A stretch of 32,000 nucleotides of DNA from Sneathiella marina (GTDB lineage: Bacteria > Pseudomonadota > Alphaproteobacteria > Sneathiellales > Sneathiellaceae). The translations under genes and the position numbers were made by a program. Shown piece by piece: positions 5,058-25,164 of this stretch; position 1 is the first letter of the stretch, and every line of letters starts with the position of its first letter. The notes under the pieces are model-generated. The model worked only from the letters and a program-made list of their open reading frames with translations, did no database searches and had not been told where the DNA came from. Location of the stretch: contig NZ_CP098747.1 in NCBI RefSeq assembly GCF_023746535.1, positions 656,364 through 688,363 of the forward strand. The letters run 5' to 3'.

Positions 5058-5265
5058 TGTTATTTTTTCTTTCGCACTCTTTTTATCAGATTGTAGCCGA
5101 AAGAACCGGGCATTCCCAGTGGTATCAATTTGGGGAAAACGGCGTTCTGAAGCGTGAGAAGCCGTATTTTCGGACTGGGTTGCAATTAAATCCAGTCAAA
5201 TTGATCCTGCGCTGCTTAGTTTTACGGTTAGTCGCTCTTGCGTGATAGTATCTGGCTTAAACGAA

Positions 5266-5275
5266 TTGTAATTGT
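5266..5275. promoter_or_regulatory. Second copy of TTGTAATTGT in the amidohydrolase / TIM::cupin divergent region
   Basis: Exact 10-mer match to 3842-3851. It lies 75 nt upstream of the ATG at 5350. Confidence 0.25.
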
Positions 5276-5349
5276 TGACCCCGCTAACCTTGAATCCGAG
5301 ACGGACAACACCTATCGTTTGGGTCATCAAATCAAAAGGAAAAGGCAAA

Positions 5350-6405
5350 ATGGGACTACGGTTTATTTTCATGCTTACACGGAATGATAAGACTGTGGAG
5401 GATGCAGAACAACATCTTGCAACAGCGCTTGCGGCGGGAGTGCATCACATTGGCTTTAAGGATGTCGGTTTGCCGTTTGACCGGCTGAAGCGGCTAAATG
5501 AAGCCATCAAAGCAGGAGGAGCGACAAGCTATCTAGAAGTGGTTTCTCTCGACAGAGACAGCGAATTGGCGTCAGCGAAGGCGGCGGCGGAAATTGGTGT
5601 TGATATCTTGTTAGGGGGGACAAATGTTGATGCGGTCTTGCCCATATTGAAGGGCACTGAAATTCAGTATTATCCGTTTCCTGGACGTATCGAAGGGCAT
5701 CCGAGCGCCTTGACTGGGTCAATCGACGAGATAGTCGCCAGTGCAGTAGAATTAAATGCTCGGGACGGTGTAGATGGGCTGGATTTGCTGGCTTATCGCT
5801 CTTCCGAAAATGTGACTGGTTTAATGGCGGCTGTCTGCGCAGCTGTTGACAAACCGGTTATCATGGCGGGTTCCATTGGCAGCCGGGAGCGAATTGAGAT
5901 TGTTCGCAGATCCGGCGCAGCTGGATTCACTATTGGCACCGCCGCGCTGGATGGTGACTATCCTGCCGATAGCCCGGAGTTGGAGACCCAATTACGATCC
6001 ATACAAAAAGACGTGGCGGGCGTTAATAACCATCTTTCGCCTTTCGGACCGAAAAACATTGCTCAATCCTTTGCCACATTTGCCGACACATGGAACCCTC
6101 GGATTGCAGGGCAGGTGAATGATATGCACATTAAATTAGTTAAACTCGAAGGTAGTTTTGTTTGGCATCACCACGAGACTGAGGATGAGTTATTTTTTGT
6201 GCATAAAGGCAAACTCATGATGAAATTTCGAGATCGGGATGAATTTATCAATGAAGGAGAATTTATTATCGTGCCACATGGTGTTGAGCACTGTCCTGTT
6301 GCCATAGACGGCATATGCGAGGTGCTGCTTCTAGAACCAACTTCAACACTGAACACCGGTAATGCAGTTGATGATAGAACTCGGGTGAATCTTGAATTTG
6401 TTTAG
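5350..6405 (+). CDS. Two-domain protein: N-terminal TIM-barrel-like domain of unknown function fused to a C-terminal cupin domain
   Basis: ATG at 5350 has AAAGGAAAAGG just upstream. The track start at 5272 is a TTG with no RBS. The C-terminal ~110 aa carry cupin motifs (WHHHETEDELFFVHKGK ... VPHGVEHCP). The N-terminal ~250 aa show alternating beta/alpha patterning (GVDILLGG, VIMAGSIG, FTIGTAA). Confidence 0.55.
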   Translation: MGLRFIFMLTRNDKTVEDAEQHLATALAAGVHHIGFKDVGLPFDRLKRLNEAIKAGGATSYLEVVSLDRDSELASAKAAAEIGVDILLGGTNVDAVLPILKGTEIQYYPFPGRIEGHPSALTGSIDEIVASAVELNARDGVDGLDLLAYRSSENVTGLMAAVCAAVDKPVIMAGSIGSRERIEIVRRSGAAGFTIGTAALDGDYPADSPELETQLRSIQKDVAGVNNHLSPFGPKNIAQSFATFADTWNPRIAGQVNDMHIKLVKLEGSFVWHHHETEDELFFVHKGKLMMKFRDRDEFINEGEFIIVPHGVEHCPVAIDGICEVLLLEPTSTLNTGNAVDDRTRVNLEFV

Positions 6406-6474
6406 GGTCACAAAGGCTTAAGCAAAGCAATATATTGCAAATAAATGCCCGAAATGGGGCCAAAGAACGGCGCC

Positions 6475-14520: not shown

Positions 14521-15381
14521 ATGGGCCCAACCTCAAACAGCTACATTTCGCAACGTATTAAGCTACATTATGTAGATTGGGGGAACCCGGAGGCACCGCC
14601 GCTATTACTAATACATGGGGGACGGGATCATTGTAGGAATTGGGATTGGATTGCTGAAGAATTACGTCATGACTGGCACGTTATCGCACCTGACTTACGT
14701 GGCCATGGTGACAGTGGGTGGTCTACCGATGGCAATTACAGCATTCAAAGCTATATCTATGACATTGCTCAGCTTATCCATCAAAAGGAATTGAGCCCGG
14801 TAAGCATTGTTTCCCATTCTATGGGTGGAAATATTGCGCTGCGTTATACAGGTCTTTATCCGGAAACTGTAAGAAAACTTGTTGCTATCGAGGGTCTTGG
14901 TGCCTCACCCAAGATGGTGAAAGAAGCTCAAGCCGTTCCTACTGCCCAACGTTGGCGCGACTGGATTGAAAAAAAGCGTGCAGCCAGTGCCCGCTCACAT
15001 CGTCGATATGAAACATTTGAAGATGCTTTGGCGCGCATGAAAGCTGAAAATGGCCATTTGTCGGACATGCAAGCCCTGCATCTTACCACCCATGCTGTGA
15101 ACCAAAATGAAGACGGTACTTTCAGCTGGAAATTTGACAACTATATGCGCGTTTGGGCGCCATTTGATATTGACCATGAAGAAACCCAGAAACTTTGGGG
15201 AGAAATATCCTGCCCAACGATGCTGTGTTACGGCAATGACAGTTGGGCGTCAAATCCGGCGGATGATGGGCGGTCAAAATATTTCAAAAATACTATCGTG
15301 AAGAACTATGAAAACGCTGGCCACTGGTTGCACCATGACCAGTTTGAGAAATTCATGACGGACTTGCGAGAGTTTTTATAA
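14521..15381 (+). CDS. Alpha/beta-fold hydrolase
   Basis: GGGAG RBS upstream. Motifs are the oxyanion HGGRDH, the nucleophile elbow SHSMGG and the C-terminal GHWLHHDQ (catalytic His). Confidence 0.85.
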   Translation: MGPTSNSYISQRIKLHYVDWGNPEAPPLLLIHGGRDHCRNWDWIAEELRHDWHVIAPDLRGHGDSGWSTDGNYSIQSYIYDIAQLIHQKELSPVSIVSHSMGGNIALRYTGLYPETVRKLVAIEGLGASPKMVKEAQAVPTAQRWRDWIEKKRAASARSHRRYETFEDALARMKAENGHLSDMQALHLTTHAVNQNEDGTFSWKFDNYMRVWAPFDIDHEETQKLWGEISCPTMLCYGNDSWASNPADDGRSKYFKNTIVKNYENAGHWLHHDQFEKFMTDLREFL

Positions 15382-15557
15382 TATGTATGAAAACGTGATG
15401 CTCAGGAAAAATAACGAACTACCAGTACACGGAATTTCAGTCTGCGTGGATTCACAAAGCTCCAAATGCAACTTACAGACAGAACAACAATTTTTAAAAT
15501 GCTTGTCGAGGCCGCGAGTCTCTGTATTCGATCTAAAATAAATTTCCGCCTAACTCT

Positions 15558-18320
15558 TCAATTTCGTTTCCAATTGGTGTGTTCAAAAATGCTTTTTTCA
15601 ACTGACCATTGCTCGACCAGATAATCTTTGAAACTTCCATTTTTTGAGACACCTTTCAGATCCAAAATACTATATTTTACTTCGCGATCTTCTGAAAAAA
15701 TTTCATCCAAAGACAAAATTCTTGGACATCCCCCTATCACTTCACATGCCATAGTGGCAACGTCTCCGCTGGTCGTCAAAGCATTTGAAGTATGGAGTTC
15801 TGGTTGATGAGCATCAACATTTTTAACTAAAAACAAGGCGTGGAAAAAGCCCGGCATTCTTCTACCTTCATACCCGATGCCAATTTGATCGACGAATGCC
15901 GGATCAAACATCGGATTGTCTACCCACCAACCATGGTCGGAGACGACTTGTATTTGCGTTGAATTGTATACTTTATCCGCTTTCATTCTTTCGAAAATTT
16001 TAGCTAATTGGAGAAGAGAATATGTTGCTTCAGCTTTGTAATCGCCTTTGCCTTTTTGACTGATGTTTCCTTCCTGATCAATAACGTTAGGACCATGAGG
16101 CACATGTAGATGTATAAAGTTTAGCGTTGGTTTTTCTGAAGTAGCTACTTCTTTTTCAGAGAGACTATCAAGCAATTTGATCATTTTCAGTTTAGAATTC
16201 GTTGATTCATCGTTGTGAGTTTTATCCAAGTAGGTGAAATAGAAATGTTCTCTGAAAAATAGCGGGAACGATTTTAAAATTGAAAACTTAATCAGTGATC
16301 TGATTACAAAATTATCGGCTTCCGGGTTGTTCGAATTTGCGTAGCCATTGCCATCAATCTTGTATATTGACGCGTCCTTATTAGAGATTTTGACATTAAA
16401 TTTTGGTTGTACAATATTGCTATTGTACCCTTTAGGCTTAAAAAGCTCAGGTAATACCAAATAAGAATCCGCTAGAGTATCAAGCATTCTGTCATTGCTT
16501 GAGGGTATTACATTTTCTATGTGAAAGCGATGTCCCCCAAAAATAGAGGGGAGTGAGCCGATTGTTCCTCCTGAATTTGCGACACTATTTTTGTACCAAG
16601 TAAAATCCTTGAACCCATTTCTGATTTTTCTATTTTCCTTCACAAGCTCCGGAAATAGACCACCTGAAAATCCGTCCAGGATAATTACAAGAACATTTTT
16701 TCCTGATTTTGAAAGAGTTAGATTGAAATCTCTGGCTTCTAGGTAAGAGCTTTCTGTTTGGTTATCCGTATTGCCTGCGTTTGCCACCAGTAAAGAAGCT
16801 GCACTTACAGAGATCGTCGCCAATGATGTTATGAACAATAATAGTAACAATGGAACGAAATAGGATTGCAGTTTATTGAAATTCTTCAAAAATAAGAGAA
16901 ACAATCCAACCAAGACGGTGAATTCCAAAATTGAATGAAAGGCACTGACATTGATAAGGTCTGGCTGATTAAATGTAAAATTGTCCAGTAGGCCGTAATT
17001 TAACCCAACAAGTTTAGAGTAGACAAAGAAAATGGTGCTTAAATATACTGAAAGTATCAAAATGGATTTTACGATATTTTCGGATGAAAACCTTAGTAAA
17101 ATATAGCCCAACATTATGGCTAGACAAAAAATTGTTATGTTAGCCAACAAAATAGTGAAATATTCAATTCCATAATACTCGCTGGGGTCAGATAAGTATA
17201 AATTCAAAGGGTTATCGAGAACGATAATAAAGATCAGAAGCGACAGGAACCCAAGAGAAACGAGACGTAATTTTGCTTGGCTATATGAAAGAGACGCCGT
17301 ATTTCCCAAAACACCAAAAAAGAGGGCAGCCTGTACACCTAAGACAAGAAAAGAAATATTTATAAACAGTAGTGAGGGAAGCCGGTATTGGTCGCTGATC
17401 TGACCAAAGGCCATTGCCACCTGAAGTAAGAACAAAACATAGAGAACAAATTTGGAAAGATAAGAAAAATTGTATGAAAATTTAACTGAGAAATAAAAGA
17501 GAATGATTTCTAACGAAATAATTAGAGCTACAATATTGCTGTTTTCATCGGCAATTTGAGTTGGCAAAAAATGGTCAATTAAGCAAAAGCTGATAACAAA
17601 AATACAAAGGGATACTGTGTATTTGTTGATAAGGAAGTCATAGATTTGACGTCTGGAAACAGTGGAGATAAGTAACACGCCCCTTTTATCAGCATTTCTC
17701 ATGATGATAATGTTTCTAAATAGAATAAAGGCGTTGCTTACTGTCCAGTATATTAGCAAAACAGATTTAGCGTTGTATAAAAGAACTAGAAATAGAAGGC
17801 TAACGCCAAAAGCTTGAATTAGATCGTTTTTTGTGAAATTCGGTGTTGTTAATGCAGCTGCCACATTTACAAATGTCATAATAAAAGGAAGTAAATTTCC
17901 TTGGCCTAAAATTAGATTGTCAGGGCCTCCCAGATTTTTAATAAAGATAAATTGTTCACCATTCAAAACATCAAGCTGTTCAAACATAAAATAGGTAAGA
18001 ACTAACAAGGGGAGCTGTATGAAAAGACCAAGCAGCTTTCTTACTGAGTATATTGGATGGTAACTGTAGCGATTATATAGATTATTTAATCTAGTGTGCT
18101 GTTCAGCGCCCTTACTTTCTTTTTTAATTCTTTCAACTTGAGGAGCTAAAACAGTTTGAAAACTGGTTTCTTTGTAAACTATTAAATTGGCCAATTTTGT
18201 TGGCTTTATCAGTAGCAAACTAACAAATAGAGACAGAAGTATGGTAGCGAGGCCATAGCTATGAACAATATTAGAGATGAAAAGAAATAAACTCTCGTAA
18301 TATGAAATAACAATATTCAA
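15558..18320 (-). CDS. 920-aa membrane fusion: YidC/Oxa1-like N-terminal domain + polytopic segment + C-terminal alkaline-phosphatase-superfamily (sulfatase/LtaS/EptA-like) phosphotransferase domain
   Basis: TTG start at 18320 has AAGGT about 10 nt upstream. Residues 1 to ~210 show YidC/Oxa1 hallmarks: GLATILLSLFVSLLLIKP; LNNLYNRYSYHPIYS..LLGLFIQLPLLVLTYF; LLIYWTVSNAFILFRN. By eye there are about 14 hydrophobic segments in total. The C-terminal ~375 aa carry VLVIILDG (Asp codon 16674-16676), SGGTIGSLPS (candidate Thr nucleophile, codon 16563-16565), HLHVPHGP and VVSDHGWW. Confidence 0.7.
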   Translation of the reverse strand: MNIVISYYESLFLFISNIVHSYGLATILLSLFVSLLLIKPTKLANLIVYKETSFQTVLAPQVERIKKESKGAEQHTRLNNLYNRYSYHPIYSVRKLLGLFIQLPLLVLTYFMFEQLDVLNGEQFIFIKNLGGPDNLILGQGNLLPFIMTFVNVAAALTTPNFTKNDLIQAFGVSLLFLVLLYNAKSVLLIYWTVSNAFILFRNIIIMRNADKRGVLLISTVSRRQIYDFLINKYTVSLCIFVISFCLIDHFLPTQIADENSNIVALIISLEIILFYFSVKFSYNFSYLSKFVLYVLFLLQVAMAFGQISDQYRLPSLLFINISFLVLGVQAALFFGVLGNTASLSYSQAKLRLVSLGFLSLLIFIIVLDNPLNLYLSDPSEYYGIEYFTILLANITIFCLAIMLGYILLRFSSENIVKSILILSVYLSTIFFVYSKLVGLNYGLLDNFTFNQPDLINVSAFHSILEFTVLVGLFLLFLKNFNKLQSYFVPLLLLLFITSLATISVSAASLLVANAGNTDNQTESSYLEARDFNLTLSKSGKNVLVIILDGFSGGLFPELVKENRKIRNGFKDFTWYKNSVANSGGTIGSLPSIFGGHRFHIENVIPSSNDRMLDTLADSYLVLPELFKPKGYNSNIVQPKFNVKISNKDASIYKIDGNGYANSNNPEADNFVIRSLIKFSILKSFPLFFREHFYFTYLDKTHNDESTNSKLKMIKLLDSLSEKEVATSEKPTLNFIHLHVPHGPNVIDQEGNISQKGKGDYKAEATYSLLQLAKIFERMKADKVYNSTQIQVVSDHGWWVDNPMFDPAFVDQIGIGYEGRRMPGFFHALFLVKNVDAHQPELHTSNALTTSGDVATMACEVIGGCPRILSLDEIFSEDREVKYSILDLKGVSKNGSFKDYLVEQWSVEKSIFEHTNWKRN

Positions 18321-18351
18321 AGCTAATTACCTTATGAAGGCTAGTAAGTGA

Positions 18352-19632
18352 CTATTTCTGCACCAAATCTGGTAGATACTGAATTATACTTGGAGAGGAG
18401 TTCCCAAAATTTGTGACACAGCGGTCCCTGAAAGACGAGATGTTTTTTGAAGATTGCTGCTCTAGTACAGATTTGATAATTTCTCCTAATTTCCCAATCT
18501 CATTGGGCGCAATTGATACACCAATCTGTGATGCCGCTTCATCATCCCAGAACTCATCCAGATCTTCCGCCTCAAAGCCGACCAGGTCTTTTGCCGAAAT
18601 TTGTAATGAAATTACTGGTTTCTCATAAATAAATGCGAAATCAAAGCGTATAGAGGAAGTGTCTGAAATCAAAATATCAGAAATACTCATTGAGTAATTT
18701 GGAGAGATTTCATCATCCCATTTGAAATTGTCAAAGGTTTCCAGTTCTTTTTTGCATTGATCGATAAATTCGGGTTCAGCTATTCTCGAATGAGGATGAG
18801 GGCGAACGATGACATTATACCCCTGTTCAAGTAGAGCTTTTATAAAAGAAATTCCGTACGCTTTTAGGCAGCCCTTAGGCCCCCAAGAAGAGCCAATGAG
18901 GATCGTTGTTTTATCTTGCTTAAGAACGGAAGGATTGCGGTTTTTATACAGTTCATCCAGGTATGGTAGACCGAGGGATATCAATCTTTTTGGCTTCAGA
19001 TTCCGTCTTTTTTCAATACTTCGAATTGATTTTTCCTGGAAAGGGCCAGCCATGATAACGGTATCATATTTATCTAAAGAGAATTTTTTATATGTCGATA
19101 TATCTCCAACATGGTGAAAAATATGAACCAAATTTCCAACCATATTGGATTTTTTCAAAAAATAATTCTTGGCGCCGATGTTTGGAGAGGTGGAAACCAT
19201 GACAGGCGCTTCTATGTGAGACAATTCCTTTAGCCCGAAAATAGACCTGCTACATCTCTTGGAGTTCATGTAAGGGCTTTCGATTTCTAATGCCGGATCA
19301 AACAGATCCAATGTCCTGTAACGGAAATAAATTTTTCGGCTTATTAGTTCTTCAACAATTGGGCGAAATGTTCCCCAATAAGCGCGCCCTTCGCTAAACA
19401 GAACAAGAGTATTCTTGGGCGAGTGCGTGTCCTGTGCATCATCTTTTAATCCTGCTATGCGGTAAAAGAAGGTCTTAATGGTATACCATACTGCGCCCAA
19501 TGCCGCGAACAGGACTCCAACCAGCGCACTCCCGGAACCTGGGTCCAAATATGCGTAAGCAGGCTTGGAATATAAAACCAAACAACCGATGAAAAAAAGA
19601 TCAACGAGCACCCTTTTAGTCGTACCTAACAT
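18352..19632 (-). CDS. Membrane-anchored TagB/TagF-like (Glyphos_transf-like) phosphotransferase
   Basis: ATG at 19632 overlaps the upstream stop by 7 nt. The N-terminus has hydrophobic anchors (VLVDLFFIGCLVLY; ALVGVLFAALGAVWY). The C-terminal half carries motifs reminiscent of CDP-glycerol glycerophosphotransferases: ILIGSSWGP, VIVRPHPHS, ILISDTSSIRFDFAFIYEKPVI. Confidence 0.55.
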   Translation of the reverse strand: MLGTTKRVLVDLFFIGCLVLYSKPAYAYLDPGSGSALVGVLFAALGAVWYTIKTFFYRIAGLKDDAQDTHSPKNTLVLFSEGRAYWGTFRPIVEELISRKIYFRYRTLDLFDPALEIESPYMNSKRCSRSIFGLKELSHIEAPVMVSTSPNIGAKNYFLKKSNMVGNLVHIFHHVGDISTYKKFSLDKYDTVIMAGPFQEKSIRSIEKRRNLKPKRLISLGLPYLDELYKNRNPSVLKQDKTTILIGSSWGPKGCLKAYGISFIKALLEQGYNVIVRPHPHSRIAEPEFIDQCKKELETFDNFKWDDEISPNYSMSISDILISDTSSIRFDFAFIYEKPVISLQISAKDLVGFEAEDLDEFWDDEAASQIGVSIAPNEIGKLGEIIKSVLEQQSSKNISSFRDRCVTNFGNSSPSIIQYLPDLVQK

Positions 19633-20765
19633 AGAGCCCTCAATGTTTTGCGTATCATTTCAGGTGTTAGCTGAATTGGGTGATTACTCAGACGTTCAAC
19701 ATTAACTTGCTCAATAATTCTATCAATTACTTTGCTCGAATTCACTTTGGTTGTATCTAGCTTGATTGAAAGGCCGCAGGCTTTCATAATTGCATACCAG
19801 CGATCTTTAGCTGCGGTTGCATTTTTTACGTTTAGCAATACGTAAAGGTCTCTCATCGTTTTGGCGAAGCTCGATGGGGTTACATTATGATTATAGCCTT
19901 GGATGTTTTCTTGTGCATGCAGTTCAAAGAACAATCCCAATGTGATAGCGGCAGCATGACCATGGGGTAAGCCAAATTCCTTAGTAATTCCGTATGACAG
20001 AGCATGTGGCGCCGTCGTTTTACTTATGTTAATTGCTTTGCCAGCTAAATGGGCAGCTTGAACCACTGATGTTCTTTTTTCTTTGTGGCCCATTGAAACA
20101 GCTTCTGTCAGGTCCTTTATGAGTATCTTTATGGCTTGCGAGGCGTAAAGTTTACTTTCCGATGTTGCATTGGCTGACCAGTAAGACTCCACGGCCTGGC
20201 ATAAAGCGTCAAACCCGGTACAGGCGGATATGTATTGCGGCAGGTTATCCACGAAGCAGGCATCCACAATAGAAACATCTGGCATCAATTGATCGGATGC
20301 CAAGGAATATTTGACGCCATCAACATATATAACGGCAAAATGTGTAGCCTCGCTCCCTGTACCGCAAGTTGTGGGTATTGCAATAAGAGGGCATAGCTCA
20401 TTGGAAACTTTGTCTTTTCCAGTTGCGATTTCTTTTTCTCGACCAGAATGCGCCTGAATTGCATTTATTGTCTTCGCAATATCAATAGCGCTTCCCCCAC
20501 CAACAGCTATGATCAAATCATACTTCTTAGCCTTAAATTCAACTGCTCCTTTTATAGCCTGGTCGAGAGTGGGGTTTGATGTGTAGTCGTTAAAATAAAA
20601 TACTTTGCGATCTTTAAGTGCGGTATCTAGCAACTGCTTTGCGCCACTGTCGTGGAAAGACTTTTTACCTGTCACCAGAAATATATTTTTGCTGCCTAGC
20701 CGTTCAATTTCTAGTGATAAATTTGCGATGGCTCCTCGGCCTATATGTTCTGTGCTATATTTCAT
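19626..20765 (-). CDS. Iron-containing (group III) alcohol dehydrogenase; by context a phosphonoacetaldehyde reductase making 2-hydroxyethylphosphonate
   Basis: Fe-ADH motifs are AVGGGSAIDIAK and HALSYGIT...PHGHAA. The ATGA overlap with the phosphonopyruvate decarboxylase gene implies translational coupling. The context matches the PhpC/FomC-type step. Confidence 0.7.
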   Translation of the reverse strand: MKYSTEHIGRGAIANLSLEIERLGSKNIFLVTGKKSFHDSGAKQLLDTALKDRKVFYFNDYTSNPTLDQAIKGAVEFKAKKYDLIIAVGGGSAIDIAKTINAIQAHSGREKEIATGKDKVSNELCPLIAIPTTCGTGSEATHFAVIYVDGVKYSLASDQLMPDVSIVDACFVDNLPQYISACTGFDALCQAVESYWSANATSESKLYASQAIKILIKDLTEAVSMGHKEKRTSVVQAAHLAGKAINISKTTAPHALSYGITKEFGLPHGHAAAITLGLFFELHAQENIQGYNHNVTPSSFAKTMRDLYVLLNVKNATAAKDRWYAIMKACGLSIKLDTTKVNSSKVIDRIIEQVNVERLSNHPIQLTPEMIRKTLRALC

Positions 20766-21892
20766 GAGGACTGAATGAACCTCATGAAATTTTCTTTATT
20801 CTGTGTGGGTGAAATTGTCGGGCGGCCAAGATCCTTACGATTGCCGGTTTTGATTTTTACTTCAAGCAAAGCGGGCCCATCTGAACTTAGGAATTCTTTC
20901 AACGACTGTTCAAGGTCCTCGGCATTGTCGACGACATCTGAACGTATATATCCACAGCTTTTTGCAATTTCGCTCAACGAAACGGTAAAGCCAACAGTTG
21001 GCTGGCCCCCCACTGAATCATGCGCGCCATTGTTGAGGATTATATGTTTAAAGTTATGGCATTTACTTGAACCTATAATTGCCATTGAACCTAAATGCAT
21101 TAACGCAGCCCCATCTCCATCCAGGCAAATGACACGACGGTCAGGCTTCTGCATTGAAATGCCAAGTGCTATTTGGGAAGTATGCCCCATTCCCCCTACT
21201 GTCAGAAAATCACGTTGATGTCCTTGATCGCAATGCGCCCTATATTCGAAAAGCTCTCTTGATGCCATGCCAGTTGTCGCGACAATGATATCGTCAGTTG
21301 AAGTGCAATCAATAATTCTTTGTATGCCTTCTTCTCTTGAGAGAGGTAAGCTGCTTGCTTCTTTTTCTGGTTGGAGGTAGGGGGCAAACGATCCTTTTTT
21401 TGCAACCAGTGCGACAGGGAAGTTGTTTTCCCGAGCACTTAAAACCGCTGACTGCAGTGATTGCAGGTCATCTTCTTCCTCGCCAGACAGGACCCAGTAT
21501 GGAATTTCCATAGCGTCAAGCTTTTCTAGCAATACTCGTCCTTGTTTCACATGTTGGGGTTCATCCGGAACTCCTGGCTCTCCTCTCCAGCCTATGAGGA
21601 GTAGCATGGGGATAGAGTAGACATCACTATCAGCAAGTGACATCAAAGGGTTAATCGCATTACCCAGTCCAGAATTTTGAAAATAAACCAGTGGAATTTT
21701 GCCCGTAGATAAATGATATCCGATAGCTAACCCAACCGCAGCACCTTCGTTAGATGCAATGACATGATTTTTTTCGGTTGTATTGTCGGTCACGTAAGCA
21801 CAGAAAGATTTAAGTAAAGAATCTGGAACGCCTGTAAAAAAATCAATATCGGTATCTTTTAACGTTCCGAAAAATACATTTGGTCTAGTCAC
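20762..21892 (-). CDS. ppd: Phosphonopyruvate decarboxylase (ThDP-dependent)
   Basis: GTG start at 21892. The N-terminus FFGTLKDTDIDFFTGVPDSLLKSF is typical of Ppd/AepY. The ThDP motif is LDGDGAALMHLGSMAIIGS...ILNNGAHDSVGGQ. Length is 376 aa and the gene lies directly downstream of pepM. Confidence 0.85.
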   Translation of the reverse strand: MTRPNVFFGTLKDTDIDFFTGVPDSLLKSFCAYVTDNTTEKNHVIASNEGAAVGLAIGYHLSTGKIPLVYFQNSGLGNAINPLMSLADSDVYSIPMLLLIGWRGEPGVPDEPQHVKQGRVLLEKLDAMEIPYWVLSGEEEDDLQSLQSAVLSARENNFPVALVAKKGSFAPYLQPEKEASSLPLSREEGIQRIIDCTSTDDIIVATTGMASRELFEYRAHCDQGHQRDFLTVGGMGHTSQIALGISMQKPDRRVICLDGDGAALMHLGSMAIIGSSKCHNFKHIILNNGAHDSVGGQPTVGFTVSLSEIAKSCGYIRSDVVDNAEDLEQSLKEFLSSDGPALLEVKIKTGNRKDLGRPTISPTQNKENFMRFIQSS

Positions 21893-21925
21893 AACACAAC
21901 CTATCTTAAATTTGGTTTTACGGAA

Positions 21926-23224
21926 TTACCTTGTTCCAGGGATTAGGTCCAAGATATCCTTTATGTTCATGCATTTGTCGGATGTTTCCAAAGAACGTCC
22001 ATGCTTTAAGATGGAATAGGCTACTTCTCTCATGGAAGGGAAGGATGCTCTTAGAAGATGGTTTGCATAAATTACTACATTTACGCCAGCCTCCGCTAAT
22101 TCTGTGTCCGTAATGCTATTGTAACTTGTTGGTACCGCAACCAATGGGACCCGGTTCTCAATTTGATTATATTTATTGCAAAAAGCAAAAACTTCATCGG
22201 GTGTTTTTTGTCTACTATGAATCATAATCCCGTCGGCGCCCGCCTCAATATACGCTTTGGCTCTTGTCAGGGCATCATCCATTCCTTTTTCAAGAATTAA
22301 GCTTTCGATGCGGGCAATGATCATAAATTCATCTGTAACTTGTGAATTTTTGCCAACTTTTATTTTATGGCAGAAATTTTCAATTGAATCTTGGTGCTGA
22401 GCGACTTCGTTTCCAAACAAGGAGTTCTTCTTTAACCCGGTTTTATCTTCAATAATGACAGCTGAAACTCCGACTCTTTCCAGGTTCTTGACGGTAAAAG
22501 AAAAATGTTCGGGTATTCCACCGGTATCAGCATCAAAAATCATTGGTTTTGTGGTTACTTCAAATGTTTCGTTGATGTTTTGTAACCGTGTAGTTAAGTC
22601 CAGTGCTTCAATGTCTGGTTTTCCTTTAATGGTCGAGTCTGTCAAGCTACTAGACCACATGGCATCAAACTCAACCGAGGTGCCATTGTTTTCTGCTTCT
22701 GCATGTTCAATAATAAGGCCGCAAAGTGGAGAATGTGCTTCTAAGACACGTACAATTTGCTTTGCATTTATCAAGCGGCGCAATCGTTTCATACGAACAT
22801 CGGGAGTCGTGCCGATTTCCTTGATACTACCATGTATCTGGGTTGACGAAATTCCCGGTGTGTATGCTACTTCAATTAGTTCACCGCCCCATTCAGAAAT
22901 TGTATTGATAACTTGAGAGCGGGTTTTTGCTTGTACGCCTGTTTTCCAGTCATCACCGTGAACCACAAAATCAGGTCTCAGATTTTTCAGGTTGGGACGG
23001 TAGTCGAGAGTTTCTTGAGGAACAACTTCGGAAACATGTTGTATATTTTCGACGACCGTCTTTCTTTGATCATAAGTCAGGTACGGGAGGCGTTTATAGC
23101 TTGCAATGGCGCTGTCAGTGAGTACTCCTACAATGACCTTTCCATATTTCGAGGCTTCCTGAAGGATGTTTATGTGTCCTGGATGTAATAGGTCTGCGCT
23201 CATTCCTACATATACAGTCTTCAA
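21926..23224 (-). CDS. pepM: Bifunctional cytidylyltransferase::phosphoenolpyruvate mutase (Fom1-like architecture)
   Basis: TTG start at 23224 has AGGGGG 5-6 nt upstream. The N-terminal ~135 aa form a TagD-type nucleotidyltransferase: [16 protein letters not shown] (HPGH at 23174-23185) and [10 protein letters not shown]. The C-terminal ~290 aa form the PEP mutase, with the diagnostic [10 protein letters not shown] at 22421-22450. Confidence 0.9.
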
Positions 23225-23303
23225 CTCAACCCCCTAATTAACCGGTATCATTAATACATTTCATTGAACCACCGGGCACTGGAAGTTTCCGGGTTAATTA
23301 CAG

Positions 23304-23327
23304 ATATACTATGAGAGTTAATATACT
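23304..23327. repeat. ATATACT direct repeat (23304-23310, 23321-23327) flanking a small AGAGT/ACTCT inverted repeat
   Basis: Read directly, 80-100 nt upstream of the pepM TTG at 23224. The stretch is AT-rich and contains -10-like hexamers on the minus strand (TATATT). Confidence 0.25.
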
Positions 23328-23533
23328 CTATACGCTAACCTCTATTCTGGAGAGTCTGTTGTCAAGACTGTTTAACAGCGGAGTTTAAGACATCCAATCC
23401 GCGGAGGGGCCGTTGTCGAATAGATAGGAACGTATGAGCTTATATAAACTCAGAGGCTCTGGCGCGCGTTGTTGTTTTGAGTAAGCCACTTTCTTGAAGT
23501 GTTACAAAGATCGATCAAAACCACAGTAGCAAG

Positions 23534-23555
23534 TGAACATTGAACACTAAGTTCA
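23534..23555. repeat. TGAACAT-TGAACAC tandem plus inverted GTTCA (TGAAC x2 direct, x1 inverted)
   Basis: Read directly as TGAACATTGAACACTAAGTTCA, in the long non-coding region upstream of pepM. Confidence 0.3.
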
Positions 23556-23606
23556 ATTAGCTTTGACTTAGCTCTCCGATCTTGCAGTATTTGCGGAAAA
23601 TTAGTG

Positions 23607-23636
23607 TCCGGGGGTGGTACCGAACCACCGACCGGA
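23607..23636 (-). terminator. Candidate intrinsic terminator downstream of the aldehyde dehydrogenase / ABC operon
   Basis: The minus strand reads TCCGG-TC-GGTGG-TTCGGTA-CCACC-C-CCGGA, a two-tier GC-rich stem. It is followed by CACTAATTTTCC, with the T-run 6 nt after the stem, so it is imperfect. It lies 53 nt downstream of the stop at 23689. Confidence 0.35.
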
Positions 23637-23688
23637 GGGTATTGACCTGACAGTGATTTTGACGATTAAACCTATCCATAATCGGTGG

Positions 23689-25140
23689 TTAAATTGGAAA
23701 GTGCATCGGTCCATCTTGAATAGTCATCCAACGTAATTCGGTAAATTGATCTATTCCGGCTTTCCCGCCAAAGCGACCATACCCAGATTCTTTCATTCCG
23801 CCAAAAGGCATTTGTGCCTCGTCATGGACAGTCGGCCCGTTGATGTGACAAATGCCAGCTTCAATCCGCTTGGCAACATTCATTGCCCGAACCGTATTTT
23901 GGCCAAAAACAGCAGCGGATAACCCATATTCGGTATCGTTGGCTATTCTGACAGCTTCATCAATACTGCCTGCCCGATAGATGCAAGCAACGGGGCCGAA
24001 GGTTTCTTCTTGGTAAATTTTCATCGATGGAGACACGCGATCTAGAAGGGTCGCGCCGATAATTGTACCGTCTATAGCGCCGCCAGCCAAAATAACAGCG
24101 CCTTTTTCAACAGCGTCGGAAATCAGCCTTTCGATCCTTTGTGCTGCCATTTTATCAACGACAGAGCCTAAGGGCGTTTTGCCTTGGCGAGGATCGCCTG
24201 CTTTAAGTGTCTTTACTTTTTCCGTGAGCTTTTCCACAAAACTGTCTGCGACAGATTCGTCCACTATTACCCGTTCCGTGGACATGCAGATTTGCCCCTG
24301 GTTCATGTACGCACCGAAAGCAATTGATGCAACCGCATGATCGAGATCAGCATCATCCAGGATGATTGCAGGAGCTTTGCCGCCAAGTTCAAGAAGTGCT
24401 GGCTTCAAATAACGGCCTGCAGTCTCTGCAATCAGTCGCCCGACCCGCGTTGATCCTGTAAAATTGACTCGCCTTATTGCTCTATGTGAAATCAGGGTTT
24501 CGACAATTTCGCGAGCGGATTCAGGAGCATTGGAGATACCGTTCAAAACTCCATCAGGAATACCGCCATCTTGCATTGCTTGCAGTATCTGCATATGAGT
24601 GTTGGGACAGATTTCTGAGGTTTTCATCACGACAGTATTCCCGCATGCCATGGGCATAGCGATGGATCGAACACCCAGAATTACAGGTGCATTCCAGGGG
24701 GCAATCGACAAAACCACACCTACGGGCTGACGGACGGCCATTGCCATGCAGCCCGTTCGGTTGGATGGAATAAGTTCGCCTGCAATTTGCGTTGTCATTG
24801 AAGCCGCTTCAATCAGCATATCGGCTGCTAGCTCGATATTGAACATCGCCCAAGGTGTCGTCGCGCCAATTTCTTCGGCCATCGCTTCTACAATTTTTTC
24901 AGATCTGGCCTTAAGGGCATCGGCAGCGGATAACAATATCTCCCGACGTTGTTTGGGTGTGGTTTCAGACCATTCAGGAAAAGCTGCTGCAGCGGCATCT
25001 GCAGCTCTCAAAGCATCGTCAATAGTTGCTGCCGCTGCTTTTGTAGCCACGTCATCCGTGATGGGATTTTGCCGTTCGAAATGCCCACCATCAGAGGCTT
25101 CAACCTGGTCTCCGTTTATGAGTAGTTCCACATTGTTCAT
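23689..25140 (-). CDS. NAD(P)-dependent aldehyde dehydrogenase (aromatic/aryl-aldehyde DH-like)
   Basis: ATG at 25140 has AGGAA 7 nt upstream. The track ORF begins one codon earlier, at GTG 25143. Motifs are FTGSTRVG, ELGGKAP (catalytic Glu) and NQGQICMSTERV (catalytic Cys). Confidence 0.9.
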   Translation of the reverse strand: MNNVELLINGDQVEASDGGHFERQNPITDDVATKAAAATIDDALRAADAAAAAFPEWSETTPKQRREILLSAADALKARSEKIVEAMAEEIGATTPWAMFNIELAADMLIEAASMTTQIAGELIPSNRTGCMAMAVRQPVGVVLSIAPWNAPVILGVRSIAMPMACGNTVVMKTSEICPNTHMQILQAMQDGGIPDGVLNGISNAPESAREIVETLISHRAIRRVNFTGSTRVGRLIAETAGRYLKPALLELGGKAPAIILDDADLDHAVASIAFGAYMNQGQICMSTERVIVDESVADSFVEKLTEKVKTLKAGDPRQGKTPLGSVVDKMAAQRIERLISDAVEKGAVILAGGAIDGTIIGATLLDRVSPSMKIYQEETFGPVACIYRAGSIDEAVRIANDTEYGLSAAVFGQNTVRAMNVAKRIEAGICHINGPTVHDEAQMPFGGMKESGYGRFGGKAGIDQFTELRWMTIQDGPMHFPI

Positions 25141-25164
25141 CACTATTTCCTATTTTAACTAGAG

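What the first reader, a model, noticed from the sequence alone, without database searches (positions are those of the whole stretch)
15558..18320. Unusual fusion: YidC/Oxa1-like insertase domain + ~9 extra TM segments + LtaS/EptA-like catalytic domain
The first ~210 aa carry the conserved helix pattern of the YidC/Oxa1 core: GLATILLSLFVSLLLIKP, a charged coiled region followed by NNLYNRYSYHP, LLGLFIQLPLLVLTYF, and LLIYWTVSNAFILF. The last ~375 aa carry the full metal/nucleophile set of alkaline-phosphatase-superfamily phosphotransferases. These are Asp in ILDG, Thr in GGTIGSLPS, HxPH, and DHG. A Thr nucleophile, rather than the Cys/Ser-FGly motif of true sulfatases, points to a phospho(no)transferase like LtaS, OpgB or EptA, which use lipid-linked donors outside the cytoplasm. 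I do not know a described example of an insertase-fold domain covalently joined to such an enzyme. The YidC-like hydrophilic groove could have been recruited as a flippase/scramblase or substrate channel for a lipid-linked phosphonate.
Basis: partly seen in the sequence, partly recalled or inferred. Interest (0 to 1): 0.75.

Follow-up and report, generated by a model that had tools for sequence, protein, structure and literature searches.

The report
YidC domain fused to phosphotransferase enzyme
A membrane protein of Sneathiella marina joins a domain that normally inserts proteins into membranes (YidC) to an outward-facing phosphate-group-transferring enzyme, and the same fusion occurs in hundreds of bacteria next to genes that make activated phosphonate or phosphate head groups, so it is probably an undescribed machine for decorating the cell surface.

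Summary
ORF 15558-18320(-) encodes 920 aa with three parts:
- A YidC/Oxa1-fold domain at aa 1-215. Pfam PF02096 covers its whole profile. The AF2 model has pLDDT 94 and TM-score 0.7 to the YidC crystal structure 3WO6.
- Nine further TM segments.
- A periplasmic alkaline-phosphatase-superfamily domain. D549, T586, H742, D795 and H796 are invariant in 60 homologues, and there is no sulfatase C/SxPxR motif.

It is not an artefact and not rare. At least 252 loci in GTDB species genomes encode relatives, mostly Treponema, Clostridia and Bacteroidota. NCBI names it only "YidC/Oxa1 family insertase", and I found no paper on it.

The gene ends a low-GC five-gene cassette: cytidylyltransferase::PEP mutase, phosphonopyruvate decarboxylase, Fe-ADH, a TagF-like transferase, then the fusion. 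The TagF-like partner lies next to the fusion in most loci, while the head-group pathway varies (HEP, AEP, CDP-amidate, choline-kinase type). One locus encodes the YidC-like part as a separate 219-aa protein.

The "strictly conserved" YidC groove arginine is never present in this family (N/S/T instead).

Best reading, largely inferred: the TagF-like enzyme loads the head group onto a lipid carrier, the YidC-like groove lets it cross the membrane, and the Thr-nucleophile domain transfers it to a surface acceptor. Interest 0.7.

The parts
15558..18320 (-). Whole gene, 920 aa: YidC-like domain + 9 TM + periplasmic alkaline-phosphatase-superfamily domain
   Evidence: ORF. Identical NCBI protein of Sneathiella marina. 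Full-length AF2 model with pLDDT 85.3 and pTM 0.76.
17676..18320 (-). aa 1-215: YidC/Oxa1-fold domain. Five TM helices (aa 22-36, 89-115, 144-157, 164-180, 186-213) with a cytoplasmic coiled-coil hairpin at aa 38-84.
   Evidence: PF02096 at 56.9 bits, full profile. Domain model with pLDDT 94.1. Foldseek finds only YidC hits, TM-score ~0.7.
18219..18221 (-). Codon of S34, the position of the canonical YidC groove arginine (E. coli R366, B. halodurans R72)
   Evidence: HMMER alignments to 3wo7 and 3wvf place S34 opposite the Arg. Across the family the column is N33/S17/T7/Y2/A1 of 60, never R or K.
17301..17675 (-). aa 216-340: variable linker with four hydrophobic segments (230-252, 263-281, 288-309, 317-335)
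   Evidence: Hydropathy. pLDDT is 45-63 here. The region is largely absent or gapped in the Colwellia-type subgroup.
16761..17300 (-). aa 341-520: five-TM membrane module directly preceding the catalytic domain (351-369, 390-408, 416-438, 460-479, 488-506)
   Evidence: Hydropathy. pLDDT 80-97. Foldseek alignments to full-length PbgA 6xlp_A (672 columns) and MCR-1 9nww_B (608 columns) are longer than the ~400-aa soluble domain. That they run on into the TM helices is inferred from this length, because the aligned residue ranges were not shown.
15561..16760 (-). aa 521-920: periplasmic alkaline-phosphatase-superfamily (PF00884) domain
   Evidence: PF00884 at 35.5 bits, above the gathering score of 25. 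Foldseek hits to PbgA, MCR-1, sulfatases and phosphonate monoester hydrolases. Family profile hits to LtaS and MCR-1 sequences.
16563..16565 (-). Codon of T586, the predicted catalytic nucleophile
   Evidence: T in 60 of 60 homologues. No [CS]xPxR motif in aa 520-920.
16674..16676 (-). Codon of D549, predicted metal ligand (ILDG)
   Evidence: Invariant in A1 and A2.
16095..16097 (-). Codon of H742 (HVPH)
   Evidence: Invariant. It lies in the region that aligns with LtaS and MCR-1 sequences.
15933..15938 (-). Codons of D795-H796 (DHG), predicted metal ligands
   Evidence: Invariant.
18352..19632 (-). Partner gene: TagF-like (CDP-glycerol glycerophosphotransferase family) protein, 426 aa, with an N-terminal membrane anchor containing AYLDPGSGSA
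   Evidence: PF04464 at 35.3 bits, above the gathering score of 22.1. 53% identical to the gene upstream of the Colwellia fusion. Within 300 bp of a fusion gene in 42 of 79 loci.
19626..20765 (-). Fe-dependent alcohol dehydrogenase, a candidate phosphonoacetaldehyde reductase (PhpC/FomC-like) giving 2-hydroxyethylphosphonate
   Evidence: PF00465 at 145 bits. TIGR03405 Phn_Fe-ADH at 169.7 bits, below its cut-off of 423.7. The same gene sits in the same cassette in L003, L014, L047, L050 and L077.
20762..21892 (-). Phosphonopyruvate decarboxylase
   Evidence: TIGR03297 at 505.4 bits, above its cut-off of 312.5.
21926..23224 (-). Cytidylyltransferase (PF01467) fused to PEP mutase
   Evidence: PF01467 at 57.4 bits plus PF13714 at 191.9 bits. 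TIGR02320 at 423.4 bits, above its cut-off of 319.55.

Best explanation
The gene encodes a real, conserved, three-part inner-membrane enzyme. It is the last component of a self-contained, horizontally acquired five-gene cassette that makes an activated phosphonate and attaches it to something outside the cytoplasm.

Proposed steps:
1. PEP mutase, phosphonopyruvate decarboxylase and the Fe-ADH make 2-hydroxyethylphosphonate (HEP). The cytidylyltransferase domain makes CMP-HEP. The enzyme identities are shown; the product is inferred.
2. The membrane-anchored, cytoplasm-facing TagF-like partner transfers HEP from CMP-HEP to a membrane lipid carrier (inferred).
3. The hydrophilic groove of the YidC-like domain lets the polar head of that carrier cross the bilayer and hands it to the adjacent enzyme (inferred; this is the weakest step).
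4. The periplasmic alkaline-phosphatase-superfamily domain sits on an LtaS/EptA/PbgA-type five-TM base. It takes the phosphonyl group onto Thr586 at a metal site formed by D549, D795, H796 and H742, then passes it to a periplasmic acceptor such as a glycan or lipid. The residues and topology are shown; the chemistry is inferred.

The layout parallels three-component periplasmic modification systems: a synthase of a lipid-linked donor, a flippase, and a periplasmic transferase.
For: Architecture:
- PF02096 and PF00884 both score above their gathering scores.
- The YidC fold is confirmed.
- The catalytic domain plus its TM base superposes best on PbgA and MCR-1.
- D549, T586, H742, D795 and H796 are invariant in 60 homologues of 20-34% identity, and there is no FGly motif.

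Topology:
- There are 5 + 9 TM segments.
- The loops at aa 37-89 and 207-229 are rich in K/R. This places the YidC hairpin in the cytoplasm and the catalytic domain outside.

Pathway:
- TIGR02320 PEP mutase and TIGR03297 Ppd score above their cut-offs. PF01467 cytidylyltransferase and Fe-ADH are present. The cassette has no aminotransferase.

Linkage:
- The same five genes occur together in L003, L014, L047, L050 and L077, spanning Gammaproteobacteria and Bacteroidota.
- A TagF-like gene lies within 300 bp of a fusion gene in 42 of 79 loci, and in 25 of the 40 loci that have at least 1.5 kb of flank on both sides.
- Glyphos_transf is the commonest Pfam family among 122 sampled neighbours (21), followed by glycosyltransferases and nucleotidyltransferases.
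- The head-group pathway varies while the TagF-like + YidC-AP pair stays. Examples are CDP-amidate-type genes in Colwellia and a Spirochaetaceae MAG, and NTP_transf_3 fused to Aminotran_5, Aminotran_1_2 or choline kinase.
- The window's cassette has no other transporter or flippase gene.
- In L019 the YidC-like part is a separate 219-aa protein encoded between the TagF-like gene and the head-group genes. So it is a discrete component of the system.

Precedent: purified E. coli YidC scrambles phospholipids in vitro (PMC11047089).
Against: - No step has been tested experimentally here, and the donor lipid and the acceptor are unknown.
- A TagF-type enzyme that loads a lipid carrier has no precedent I know of. 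Known TagF-like enzymes modify glycans or polymers.
- In tandem arrays nearly every paralogue keeps its own YidC domain (97 YTA against 6 TA ORFs). A freely acting scramblase would not require this. It fits a cis function, either substrate hand-off or self-insertion.
- The cytoplasmic coiled-coil hairpin, which is used for protein-substrate handling in canonical YidC, is strongly conserved.
- Asn or Ser in place of the groove Arg, combined with Trp at the E. coli Y517 position, is a combination that still supports insertase activity in E. coli (PMC8920935). Loss of the Arg therefore does not argue against protein insertion.
- About a quarter of the loci with at least 1.5 kb of flank on both sides have no TagF-like gene within reach.
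Confidence: 0.4

Rival explanations
1. The YidC-like domain is a dedicated protein insertase or chaperone, acting in cis or in trans. It inserts and folds the long polytopic enzyme, or a partner, in whatever host receives the cassette, and it does not move lipids. The rest of the protein is still an outward-facing phospho(no)transferase.
For: - The full YidC core, including the cytoplasmic coiled-coil hairpin, is conserved.
- Almost every tandem paralogue keeps its own copy.
- N/S at the Arg position together with an aromatic residue at the Y517 position supports insertase function in E. coli (PMC8920935).
- The cassette looks horizontally mobile. It has low GC and the same gene order occurs in distant phyla.
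Against: - Characterised LtaS/EptA/PbgA-type proteins with similar TM bases need no private insertase (established knowledge).
- YidC-less homologues exist. 59 of 149 representative hits lack the domain, and TA-type ORFs occur in the loci.
- This reading leaves the tight linkage to a cytoplasmic TagF-like enzyme and a periplasmic catalytic domain without a transbilayer step.
Confidence: 0.25
2. The YidC-like domain is a structural or docking module that has lost transport function. For example it may thin the membrane next to the active site, or its cytoplasmic hairpin may anchor the TagF-like partner. Translocation of the intermediate is done by the other nine TM helices or by host flippases.
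For: - The strict groove Arg is lost.
- TIGR03592 scores below its cut-off (54.9 against 84.3).
- The YidC domain is tethered by a variable, low-confidence TM linker.
- Stop/start overlaps between the TagF-like gene and the fusion gene are common.
Against: - The polar groove residues are almost invariant: S30, Q102, T149, N152, Q169, T193, N195, N196 and W192. This suggests selection on the groove itself and not only on the fold.
Confidence: 0.15
3. The catalytic domain is a hydrolase (phosphodiesterase or phosphonate-ester hydrolase) that trims or releases a phospho(no)-decorated polymer outside the cell. It is not a transferase.
For: - Thr-nucleophile members of the superfamily include phosphodiesterases, and weak PF01663 matches occur.
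- Foldseek also hits phosphonate monoester hydrolases at similar E-values.
Against: - The best structural matches are membrane-anchored lipid-handling members of the superfamily. Their alignment lengths (672 and 608 columns) suggest that the TM base is included.
- The gene context is biosynthetic, not catabolic.
- Tandem paralogues fit transferases with different acceptors.
Confidence: 0.1
4. The fusion is an artefact: a frameshift, a mis-assembly, or a chance resemblance of generic TM helices to YidC.
For: None found.
Against: - The NCBI protein is identical and comes from a 4.07-Mb contig.
- 97 ORFs with the same architecture occur in independent assemblies.
- 90 of 149 hits found with the C-terminal 706 aa alone carry the YidC-like domain.
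- The fold search is specific for YidC.
Confidence: 0.01

Closest known systems
YidC/Oxa1/Alb3 membrane protein insertases (PF02096), e.g. B. halodurans YidC2 (3WO6) and E. coli YidC (6AL2)
   Same: The same five-TM core with a cytoplasmic coiled-coil hairpin. TM-score 0.69-0.71 and rmsd 3.4-4.1 A. The Pfam profile is fully covered. The conserved IQxP (TM2) and LYWxxNN (TM5) motifs and the aromatic residue at the E. coli Y517 position (W192) are kept.
   Different: No positively charged groove residue (S34; N/S/T across the family). It scores below NCBI's YidC domain cut-off. It is followed in the same polypeptide by 9 TM helices and an enzyme domain. It is encoded in surface-decoration cassettes.
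Membrane-anchored alkaline-phosphatase-superfamily phosphotransferases and relatives: EptA/MCR-1, LtaS, PbgA/YejM. From my own knowledge, also OpgB, BcsG and GacH.
   Same: A TM base followed by an outward-facing PF00884 domain. There is a Thr nucleophile and an Asp/His metal site. The best Foldseek hits are PbgA 6xlp_A and MCR-1 9nww_B. The family profile aligns with LtaS and MCR-1 across the H...DH region.
   Different: Sequence similarity is marginal. A single-sequence PDB search found only iduronate sulfatase at E 0.03. The first metal ligand is Asp, where LtaS and EptA have Glu (from memory, not tested). There are 9 TM helices rather than 5, plus the YidC domain. The protein is paired with a TagF-like enzyme and CMP/CDP-activated head groups, which implies a dedicated donor rather than bulk PE or PG (inferred). 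GacH was not compared directly.
Three-component periplasmic modification systems (GtrA/GtrB/GtrC; ArnC/ArnEF/ArnT), from established knowledge
   Same: The same logic: a cytoplasmic-face enzyme makes a lipid-linked donor from a nucleotide-activated precursor, a small membrane protein flips it, and a polytopic periplasm-facing transferase installs it. The split locus L019 has three separate genes in this role.
   Different: All three components belong to other protein families: TagF-like instead of GT2, YidC-like instead of GtrA/ArnEF, and an alkaline-phosphatase-superfamily domain instead of GT-C. The group transferred is a phospho(no) head group, not a sugar. This is an analogy only, and no step has been demonstrated.
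Fom1/Fom2/FomC early fosfomycin steps and PntC-type phosphonate tailoring (PMC6697681, PMC8942020)
   Same: PF01467 cytidylyltransferase fused to PEP mutase, Ppd, and an Fe-ADH of PhpC/FomC type. Rice et al. report that 23.6% of Ppm enzymes are fused to PF01467, and they link nucleotidyl activation to cell-surface tailoring.
   Different: Those papers name LicD-like phosphotransferases and glycosyltransferases as downstream partners. They do not mention a YidC-like or insertase protein, and only Selenomonas clusters 'encoding multiple sulfatases' are noted.
TagF / TarF CDP-glycerol glycerophosphotransferases (PF04464), as the family of the partner gene
   Same: PF04464 scores above its gathering score. 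The predicted catalytic domain faces the cytoplasm and uses CMP-leaving-group donors (inferred).
   Different: The match to the TarF equivalog is very weak (19.5 bits against 550). It has an N-terminal membrane anchor with a conserved AYLDPGSGSA motif. The acceptor is unknown.

Membership tests
YidC/Oxa1 family (PF02096) | Sequence match to the family profile above the curated threshold | tested here: met
   PF02096 at 56.9 bits against a gathering score of 35, profile 1-163/163. The family profile against PDB YidC chains gives E 3.6e-18.
YidC/Oxa1 family (PF02096) | Five-TM core fold with a cytoplasmic coiled-coil hairpin between TM1 and TM2 | tested here: met
   AF2 domain model with pLDDT 94.1, helices 22-36, 38-68/71-84, 89-115, 144-157, 164-180 and 186-212. 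Foldseek to 3wo6 gives TM-score 0.69/0.70 and rmsd 3.4 A. Only YidC/OXA1L chains score E<0.01.
YidC/Oxa1 family (PF02096) | Positively charged residue in the centre of the hydrophilic groove (E. coli R366), described as strictly conserved in all homologues (PMC8920935) | tested here: not met
   S34 aligns with the Arg of 3wo7 and 3wvf. The column is N33/S17/T7/Y2/A1 in 60 family members.
YidC/Oxa1 family (PF02096) | Score above NCBI's YidC C-terminal domain model TIGR03592 cut-off (housekeeping-type YidC) | tested here: not met
   54.9 bits against a cut-off of 84.3. The YidC equivalog models score 17-44 bits against cut-offs of 365-891.
YidC/Oxa1 family (PF02096) | Protein insertase activity | not testable with these tools
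   It needs complementation of a YidC-depletion strain or in vitro insertion assays.
Alkaline-phosphatase superfamily, PF00884 branch | Profile match above threshold and the alpha/beta core fold | tested here: met
   PF00884 at 35.5 bits against 25. pLDDT is mostly above 90 for aa 530-920. 228 PDB matches at E<=0.001, and all of the 50 listed are superfamily members.
Alkaline-phosphatase superfamily, PF00884 branch | Conserved metal-binding Asp/His set and a nucleophile after the first beta-strand/helix | tested here: met
   D549, T586, H742, D795 and H796 are invariant in 60 sequences. That T586 sits at the nucleophile position rests on its offset in the PF00884 match, since residue-level structural alignments were not available. 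A short-profile test gave only an insignificant MCR-1 match (E 1.3).
Type I (formylglycine) sulfatases | C/S-x-P-x-R motif that is converted to formylglycine | tested here: not met
   No [CS]x[PA]xR in aa 520-920. The nucleophile column is Thr in 60 of 60.
LtaS/EptA/PbgA-type membrane-anchored enzymes | Multi-TM base directly before the catalytic domain, with the catalytic domain outside the cytoplasm | tested here: met
   Five hydrophobic segments at aa 351-506 immediately precede the domain. An odd number (9) of TM segments follows the cytoplasmic K/R-rich loop at 207-229. The alignments to full-length PbgA and MCR-1 cover 672 and 608 columns, longer than the soluble domain alone, which suggests that the TM base is included. 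The topology is predicted, not measured.
LtaS/EptA/PbgA-type membrane-anchored enzymes | Transfer of a phospho head group from a membrane lipid donor to an extracytoplasmic acceptor | not testable with these tools
   Inferred only from fold, topology and gene context.
Phosphonate (HEP) tailoring cassette | PEP mutase, phosphonopyruvate decarboxylase, phosphonoacetaldehyde reductase and a cytidylyltransferase encoded together | tested here: met
   TIGR02320 at 423 bits (cut-off 320) and TIGR03297 at 505 bits (cut-off 313). PF01467 is present. The Fe-ADH reaches only 170 bits against 424 for TIGR03405, so its substrate is inferred from context.

The most novel reading that the evidence does not exclude
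The YidC-like module is a natural case of an Oxa1-superfamily domain recruited to move a lipid-linked small molecule rather than a protein. Together with the TagF-like synthase and the Thr-nucleophile transferase it forms a previously unrecognised, widespread three-component system. This system installs diverse CMP/CDP-activated phospho- and phosphono-head groups (HEP, AEP, phosphoramidate, amino-alcohol phosphates) on bacterial surfaces from the periplasmic side.
Probability: 0.3. Interest if true: 0.85.

Novelty: new variant of a known kind. Interest (0 to 1): 0.7.

Why it matters
Three reasons, if the reading holds.

1. It offers a natural experiment on YidC. Whether YidC-type grooves move lipids in cells is an open question that so far rests on in vitro and in silico work (PMC11047089). 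Here a YidC domain is genetically wired to lipid and head-group chemistry, lacks the "strictly conserved" arginine, and exists in both fused and split forms. That makes the question testable by genetics.

2. It would supply the missing "installation" step for many bacterial phosphonate and phospho-head-group surface decorations. The downstream enzymes of these pathways are called enigmatic in the field (PMC6697681). The carriers include abundant gut, rumen and oral Treponema, Clostridia and Bacteroidota.

3. It matters for annotation. Hundreds of genomes label this protein as a YidC insertase, which hides an enzyme and could mislead counts of YidC paralogues.

Tried and rejected
- **Single-sequence PDB search with the catalytic domain.** Only iduronate-2-sulfatase appeared at E 0.03, so it gave no subfamily placement.
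- **Short profile around the nucleophile (A5) against the PDB.** Only insignificant matches came back (alkaline phosphatase E 0.09 in the wrong region, MCR-1 E 1.3). It cannot confirm residue-level equivalence of T586.
- **Contexts of YidC-less representatives P0038 and P0031.** The contigs are only 2.6-2.7 kb. They show that the genes are complete, but they give no neighbours.
- **Plasmid collection tblastn.** No match.
- **Promoter and terminator scan of the cassette.** Counts were at the shuffled expectation, so it is uninformative. No tRNA marks the island borders.
- **Literature.** Four searches combined YidC or insertase with sulfatase, LtaS, phosphonate or PEP mutase. None found a paper on the fusion.
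- **Readings considered and rejected.** A true sulfatase (no FGly motif, biosynthetic context). A housekeeping YidC (below the NCBI cut-offs, no Arg, sits in a low-GC island). The neighbouring aldehyde dehydrogenase as PhnY (293 bits against a 636 cut-off, with better matches to other ALDHs).

Full report
**1. The observation**

The ORF is at 15558..18320 on the minus strand and encodes 920 aa from a TTG start. An AAGG lies 10 nt upstream of the start. The protein is identical over its full length to an NCBI protein of Sneathiella marina, encoded on a 4.07-Mb contig and named "YidC/Oxa1 family membrane protein insertase".

Pfam gives two matches above their gathering scores:
- PF02096 (60KD_IMP), aa 22-208, covering profile 1-163/163, E 3.4e-15, 56.9 bits against 35.
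- PF00884 (Sulfatase), aa 541-797, 35.5 bits against 25.

The Thr codon is at 16563-16565. A hydropathy scan finds nine hydrophobic segments between the two domains.

**2. Is the N-terminal part really YidC?**

Yes.
- A sequence search of the PDB with aa 1-229 returns only YidC chains (3wo7_A at E 5.7e-10, E. coli YidC at 2.4e-5).
- A 60-member family profile raises this to E 3.6e-18.
- An AF2 model of aa 1-215 has pLDDT 94.1. It shows five TM helices plus a coiled-coil hairpin at aa 38-84.
- Foldseek against the PDB returns B. halodurans YidC2 (TM-score 0.69-0.71, rmsd 3.4 A over ~210 columns), E. coli and other YidC chains, and human OXA1L. All further hits have E>1.

There are two departures from canonical YidC:
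- NCBI's YidC domain model TIGR03592 scores 54.9 bits, below its cut-off of 84.3.
- The groove arginine (E. coli R366), called strictly conserved in all homologues (PMC8920935), aligns with S34. Across 60 family members that column is N33/S17/T7/Y2/A1 and never R or K.

The groove stays polar. S30, Q102, T149, N152, Q169, T193, N195 and N196 are each kept in at least 90% of members, and W192 (the E. coli Y517 position) is kept in 59 of 60. The same paper shows that E. coli R366N is functional when residue 517 is aromatic. Loss of the Arg therefore marks divergence but does not exclude protein insertion.

**3. The C-terminal part**

The full-length AF2 model, built from a 60-sequence alignment, has pLDDT 85.3 and pTM 0.76. 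Confidence is low only in aa 211-340.

The best Foldseek matches are full-length PbgA/YejM (6xlp_A, 672 aligned columns) and full-length MCR-1 (9nww_B, 608 columns). These are longer than the ~400-aa soluble domain, which suggests that the alignment extends into the TM helices. The aligned residue ranges were not shown. Soluble sulfatases and phosphonate monoester hydrolases follow. The family profile also aligns with LtaS and MCR-1 sequences across the H742...D795-H796 region.

D549, T586, H742, D795 and H796, plus N542 and K833, are invariant in 60 homologues that share only 20-34% identity with the query. No C/SxPxR formylglycine motif is present. This is a Thr-nucleophile metallo-phosphotransferase-type domain, not a sulfatase. 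I could not confirm at residue level that T586 superposes on the nucleophile of a solved enzyme.

**4. Topology**

The YidC core is N-out/C-in in known structures (established knowledge). The loops at aa 37-89 and 207-229 are K/R-rich (9 and 5 positive residues) and so are predicted to be cytoplasmic. Nine further TM segments, an odd number, then place the catalytic domain outside.

These nine divide into two groups:
- Four poorly conserved linker helices at aa 230-335, with pLDDT ~50, which are shortened in the Colwellia-type subgroup.
- Five well-predicted helices at aa 351-506, which form the LtaS/EptA/PbgA-like base.

**5. The fusion is conserved and common**

A full HMMER pass over 1.84 billion representatives used only aa 215-920, without the YidC part. 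It found 2609 proteins at E<=1e-3 and 40 at E<=1e-30. Among the 149 best non-self hits:
- 90 carry the family's YidC-like domain at the N-terminus.
- 59 do not. They are 246-887 aa long and mix fragments with genuine shorter forms.

A scan of one genome per GTDB species confirmed at least 252 loci. Most are in Treponema and other Spirochaetia. Others are in Lachnospiraceae, Oscillospiraceae and other Clostridia, Bacteroidaceae, Draconibacterium, Desulfovibrionaceae, Verrucomicrobiota, Neptunomonas and Ramlibacter.

Domain HMMs run on the ORFs of 79 loci gave 97 full YidC+TM+AP ORFs, 6 without the YidC part, and 10 that matched only the YidC HMM. These 10 are mostly long Colwellia-type proteins with a divergent C-terminus and ORFs cut by a contig end. 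They also include the stand-alone 219-aa protein of L019 and the 229-aa ORF of L029. 27 loci hold two to four tandem paralogues.

The "artefact" explanation is excluded, and "unusual" should not be read as "rare".

**6. Context in the window**

The gene ends a minus-strand run of five genes with short gaps or overlaps:
- 21926-23224: PF01467 cytidylyltransferase fused to PEP mutase (TIGR02320, 423 bits, above its cut-off).
- 20762-21892: phosphonopyruvate decarboxylase (TIGR03297, 505 bits, above its cut-off).
- 19626-20765: Fe-ADH.
- 18352-19632: a TagF-like PF04464 protein with an N-terminal membrane anchor.
- 15558-18320: the fusion.

GC is 34-44% across 15-23 kb and about 47-53% on both sides. 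The flanking genes are unrelated metabolism. The cassette has no aminotransferase, glycosyltransferase or transporter.

By analogy with Fom1/Fom2/FomC and PhpC, the first three genes should give CMP-2-hydroxyethylphosphonate. This rests on established knowledge and on PMC8942020 and PMC6697681. The product is inferred.

**7. Context elsewhere**

The same five genes occur together in several places:
- A metagenome contig (L003), in a different gene order.
- Neptunomonas qingdaonensis (L047), in the same order.
- Bacteroidaceae (L014) and Draconibacterium (L050, L077), there with two or three fusion paralogues.

A homologue of the TagF-like gene lies within 300 bp of a fusion gene in 42 of 79 loci. 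Among the 40 loci with at least 1.5 kb of sequence on both sides, 25 have it adjacent and 30 have one somewhere in the locus. The window's partner is 53% identical to the one next to the Colwellia fusion and shares the N-terminal AYLDPGSGSA motif.

In a random sample of 122 neighbouring ORFs from 37 loci, the commonest Pfam families were Glyphos_transf (21), GT1/GT4 (10), NTP_transferase (9) and aminotransferases (6+6).

The head-group genes differ between loci:
- PEP mutase/Ppd in 12 loci.
- A Cj1418/Cj1417/Cj1416-like set that should make CDP-amidate, in Colwellia (L001) and a Spirochaetaceae MAG (L019).
- NTP_transf_3 fused to Aminotran_1_2 in many Treponema and Clostridia loci.
- NTP_transf_3 fused to Aminotran_5 in L008 and to choline kinase in L034.

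The constant core is therefore a nucleotidyltransferase, a TagF-like enzyme and a YidC-AP protein.

In L019 the YidC-like part is a separate 219-aa protein (PF02096, 87 bits). It is encoded between the TagF-like gene and the head-group genes, and the neighbouring AP-type protein lacks that domain. L029 shows a similar split. This fused-versus-split pattern shows that the YidC-like module is a discrete component of the system.

**8. Mechanism**

Shown:
- The fold of both domains.
- The invariant catalytic set.
- The predicted outward orientation of the catalytic domain.
- The cytoplasmic activation chemistry encoded next door.
- The conserved pairing with a TagF-like enzyme.

Inferred:
- CMP-activated donors exist only in the cytoplasm, and the Thr-nucleophile domain is outside. 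The head group must therefore cross the membrane on a carrier.
- All characterised membrane-anchored relatives (LtaS, EptA/MCR-1, OpgB, BcsG, GacH) take their group from a membrane lipid (established knowledge).
- The simplest scheme is that the TagF-like enzyme loads a lipid, the lipid's head crosses, and the AP domain transfers the group to a glycan or lipid acceptor encoded elsewhere.
- The window's cassette contains no other candidate for the crossing step. E. coli YidC scrambles phospholipids in vitro (PMC11047089). The family preserves a polar groove. On this basis I assign that step to the YidC-like domain, with modest confidence.

Against this assignment: nearly every tandem paralogue keeps its own YidC domain, and the cytoplasmic hairpin is strongly conserved. 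Both observations fit a cis-acting role, which could be substrate hand-off but equally a private insertase or chaperone.

I put the full chain at 0.4, the insertase rival at 0.25, a structural or docking role at 0.15 and a hydrolase reading at 0.1.

**9. Comparison and novelty**

- The N-terminal domain is a member of the YidC/Oxa1 fold family by sequence and structure. It fails two features of canonical insertases: the groove Arg and the NCBI cut-off.
- The C-terminal part works like an LtaS/EptA-type enzyme and is a divergent member of PF00884. It fails the sulfatase FGly test.
- The system as a whole resembles the three-component periplasmic modification systems (GtrABC, ArnC/EF/T) in logic only.

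Searches of the paper library found nothing that joins YidC or insertase with sulfatase, LtaS, phosphonate or PEP mutase. The phosphonate-tailoring papers name LicD-like enzymes and glycosyltransferases as downstream partners and do not mention this protein. Subscription-only literature could not be searched.

I classify it as a new variant of a known kind: known domains and known logic, in an undescribed and widespread combination.

**10. Verdict**

Interest is 0.7. A YidC specialist would be surprised by a large YidC clade without the arginine that is fused to an enzyme. The fused and split forms give a direct genetic handle on whether YidC-type grooves move lipids in vivo.

Noticed in passing
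window 15000-23300: The five-gene cassette is a low-GC island, 34-44% against about 47-53% on both sides. Neither a tRNA nor an integrase marks its borders. The same gene order occurs in Neptunomonas (L047) and Bacteroidota (L014, L050, L077), which suggests horizontal transfer of the whole cassette.
   Followed up: partly
window 18352-19632 (aa 1-60 of the TagF-like protein); L001:8726-9997: The TagF-like partner starts with a hydrophobic segment, then the conserved motif AYLDPGSGSA, then a second hydrophobic segment. 'AYA|Y' looks like a signal-peptidase site, so the anchor could be a hairpin or a cleaved N-out TM. In either case the catalytic domain should be cytoplasmic. The role of the motif is unknown.
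   Followed up: partly
L001:4261-8647 (Colwellia psychrerythraea) and L019:11666-16070 (Spirochaetaceae MAG): Genes resembling the Campylobacter MeOPN pathway sit directly beside the TagF-like + YidC-AP pair. They are a PRK05849/PEP-utilizer protein, a gamma-glutamyl-CDP-amidate hydrolase-like GATase (128 bits, below its cut-off) and an NTP transferase. This suggests phosphoramidate surface decoration outside Campylobacter.
   Followed up: partly
L023:12003-13829, L044:11838-13664, L064:4879-6681, L081:12453-14258, L073:10631-12652, L056:14608-16590: Proteins of about 600-670 aa that fuse NTP_transf_3 to a class I/II aminotransferase-fold domain recur next to the module in Treponema and Clostridia. 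Their head group is unknown. It could be an amino-alcohol phosphate made by a CobD-like decarboxylase.
   Followed up: no
L012:1289-13868; L077:7941-17392; L031; L052: Tandem arrays of three or four full-length fusion paralogues occur, sometimes with two TagF-like genes, in Treponema (including T. putidum ATCC 700334), Draconibacterium and Clostridia. This suggests several acceptor or donor specificities per genome.
   Followed up: partly
L019:11010-11669; L029:3510-4199 and 4165-6465: In L019 the YidC-like domain is a stand-alone 219-aa protein next to an AP-type protein that lacks it. In L029 a 229-aa YidC-like ORF overlaps the start of a TM+AP ORF by 35 nt in another frame. That could be a natural split or a frameshift.
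   Followed up: partly
window 23689-25143 (-) and intergenic 23225-23688: An aldehyde dehydrogenase lies 465 bp upstream of the PEP mutase gene on the same strand. Its match to phosphonoacetaldehyde dehydrogenase (293 bits against a 636 cut-off) is weaker than its matches to several other ALDH families. It is probably not part of the cassette. The 465-bp gap presumably holds the cassette's promoter.
   Followed up: partly
P0002-P0010; L016, L018, L047, L067: A Colwellia-type subgroup of about 800 aa has a much shorter TM linker and a more divergent C-terminal domain. It keeps the D, H and DH columns but was not matched by the main-group AP HMM. Its nucleophile residue was not determined.
   Followed up: no
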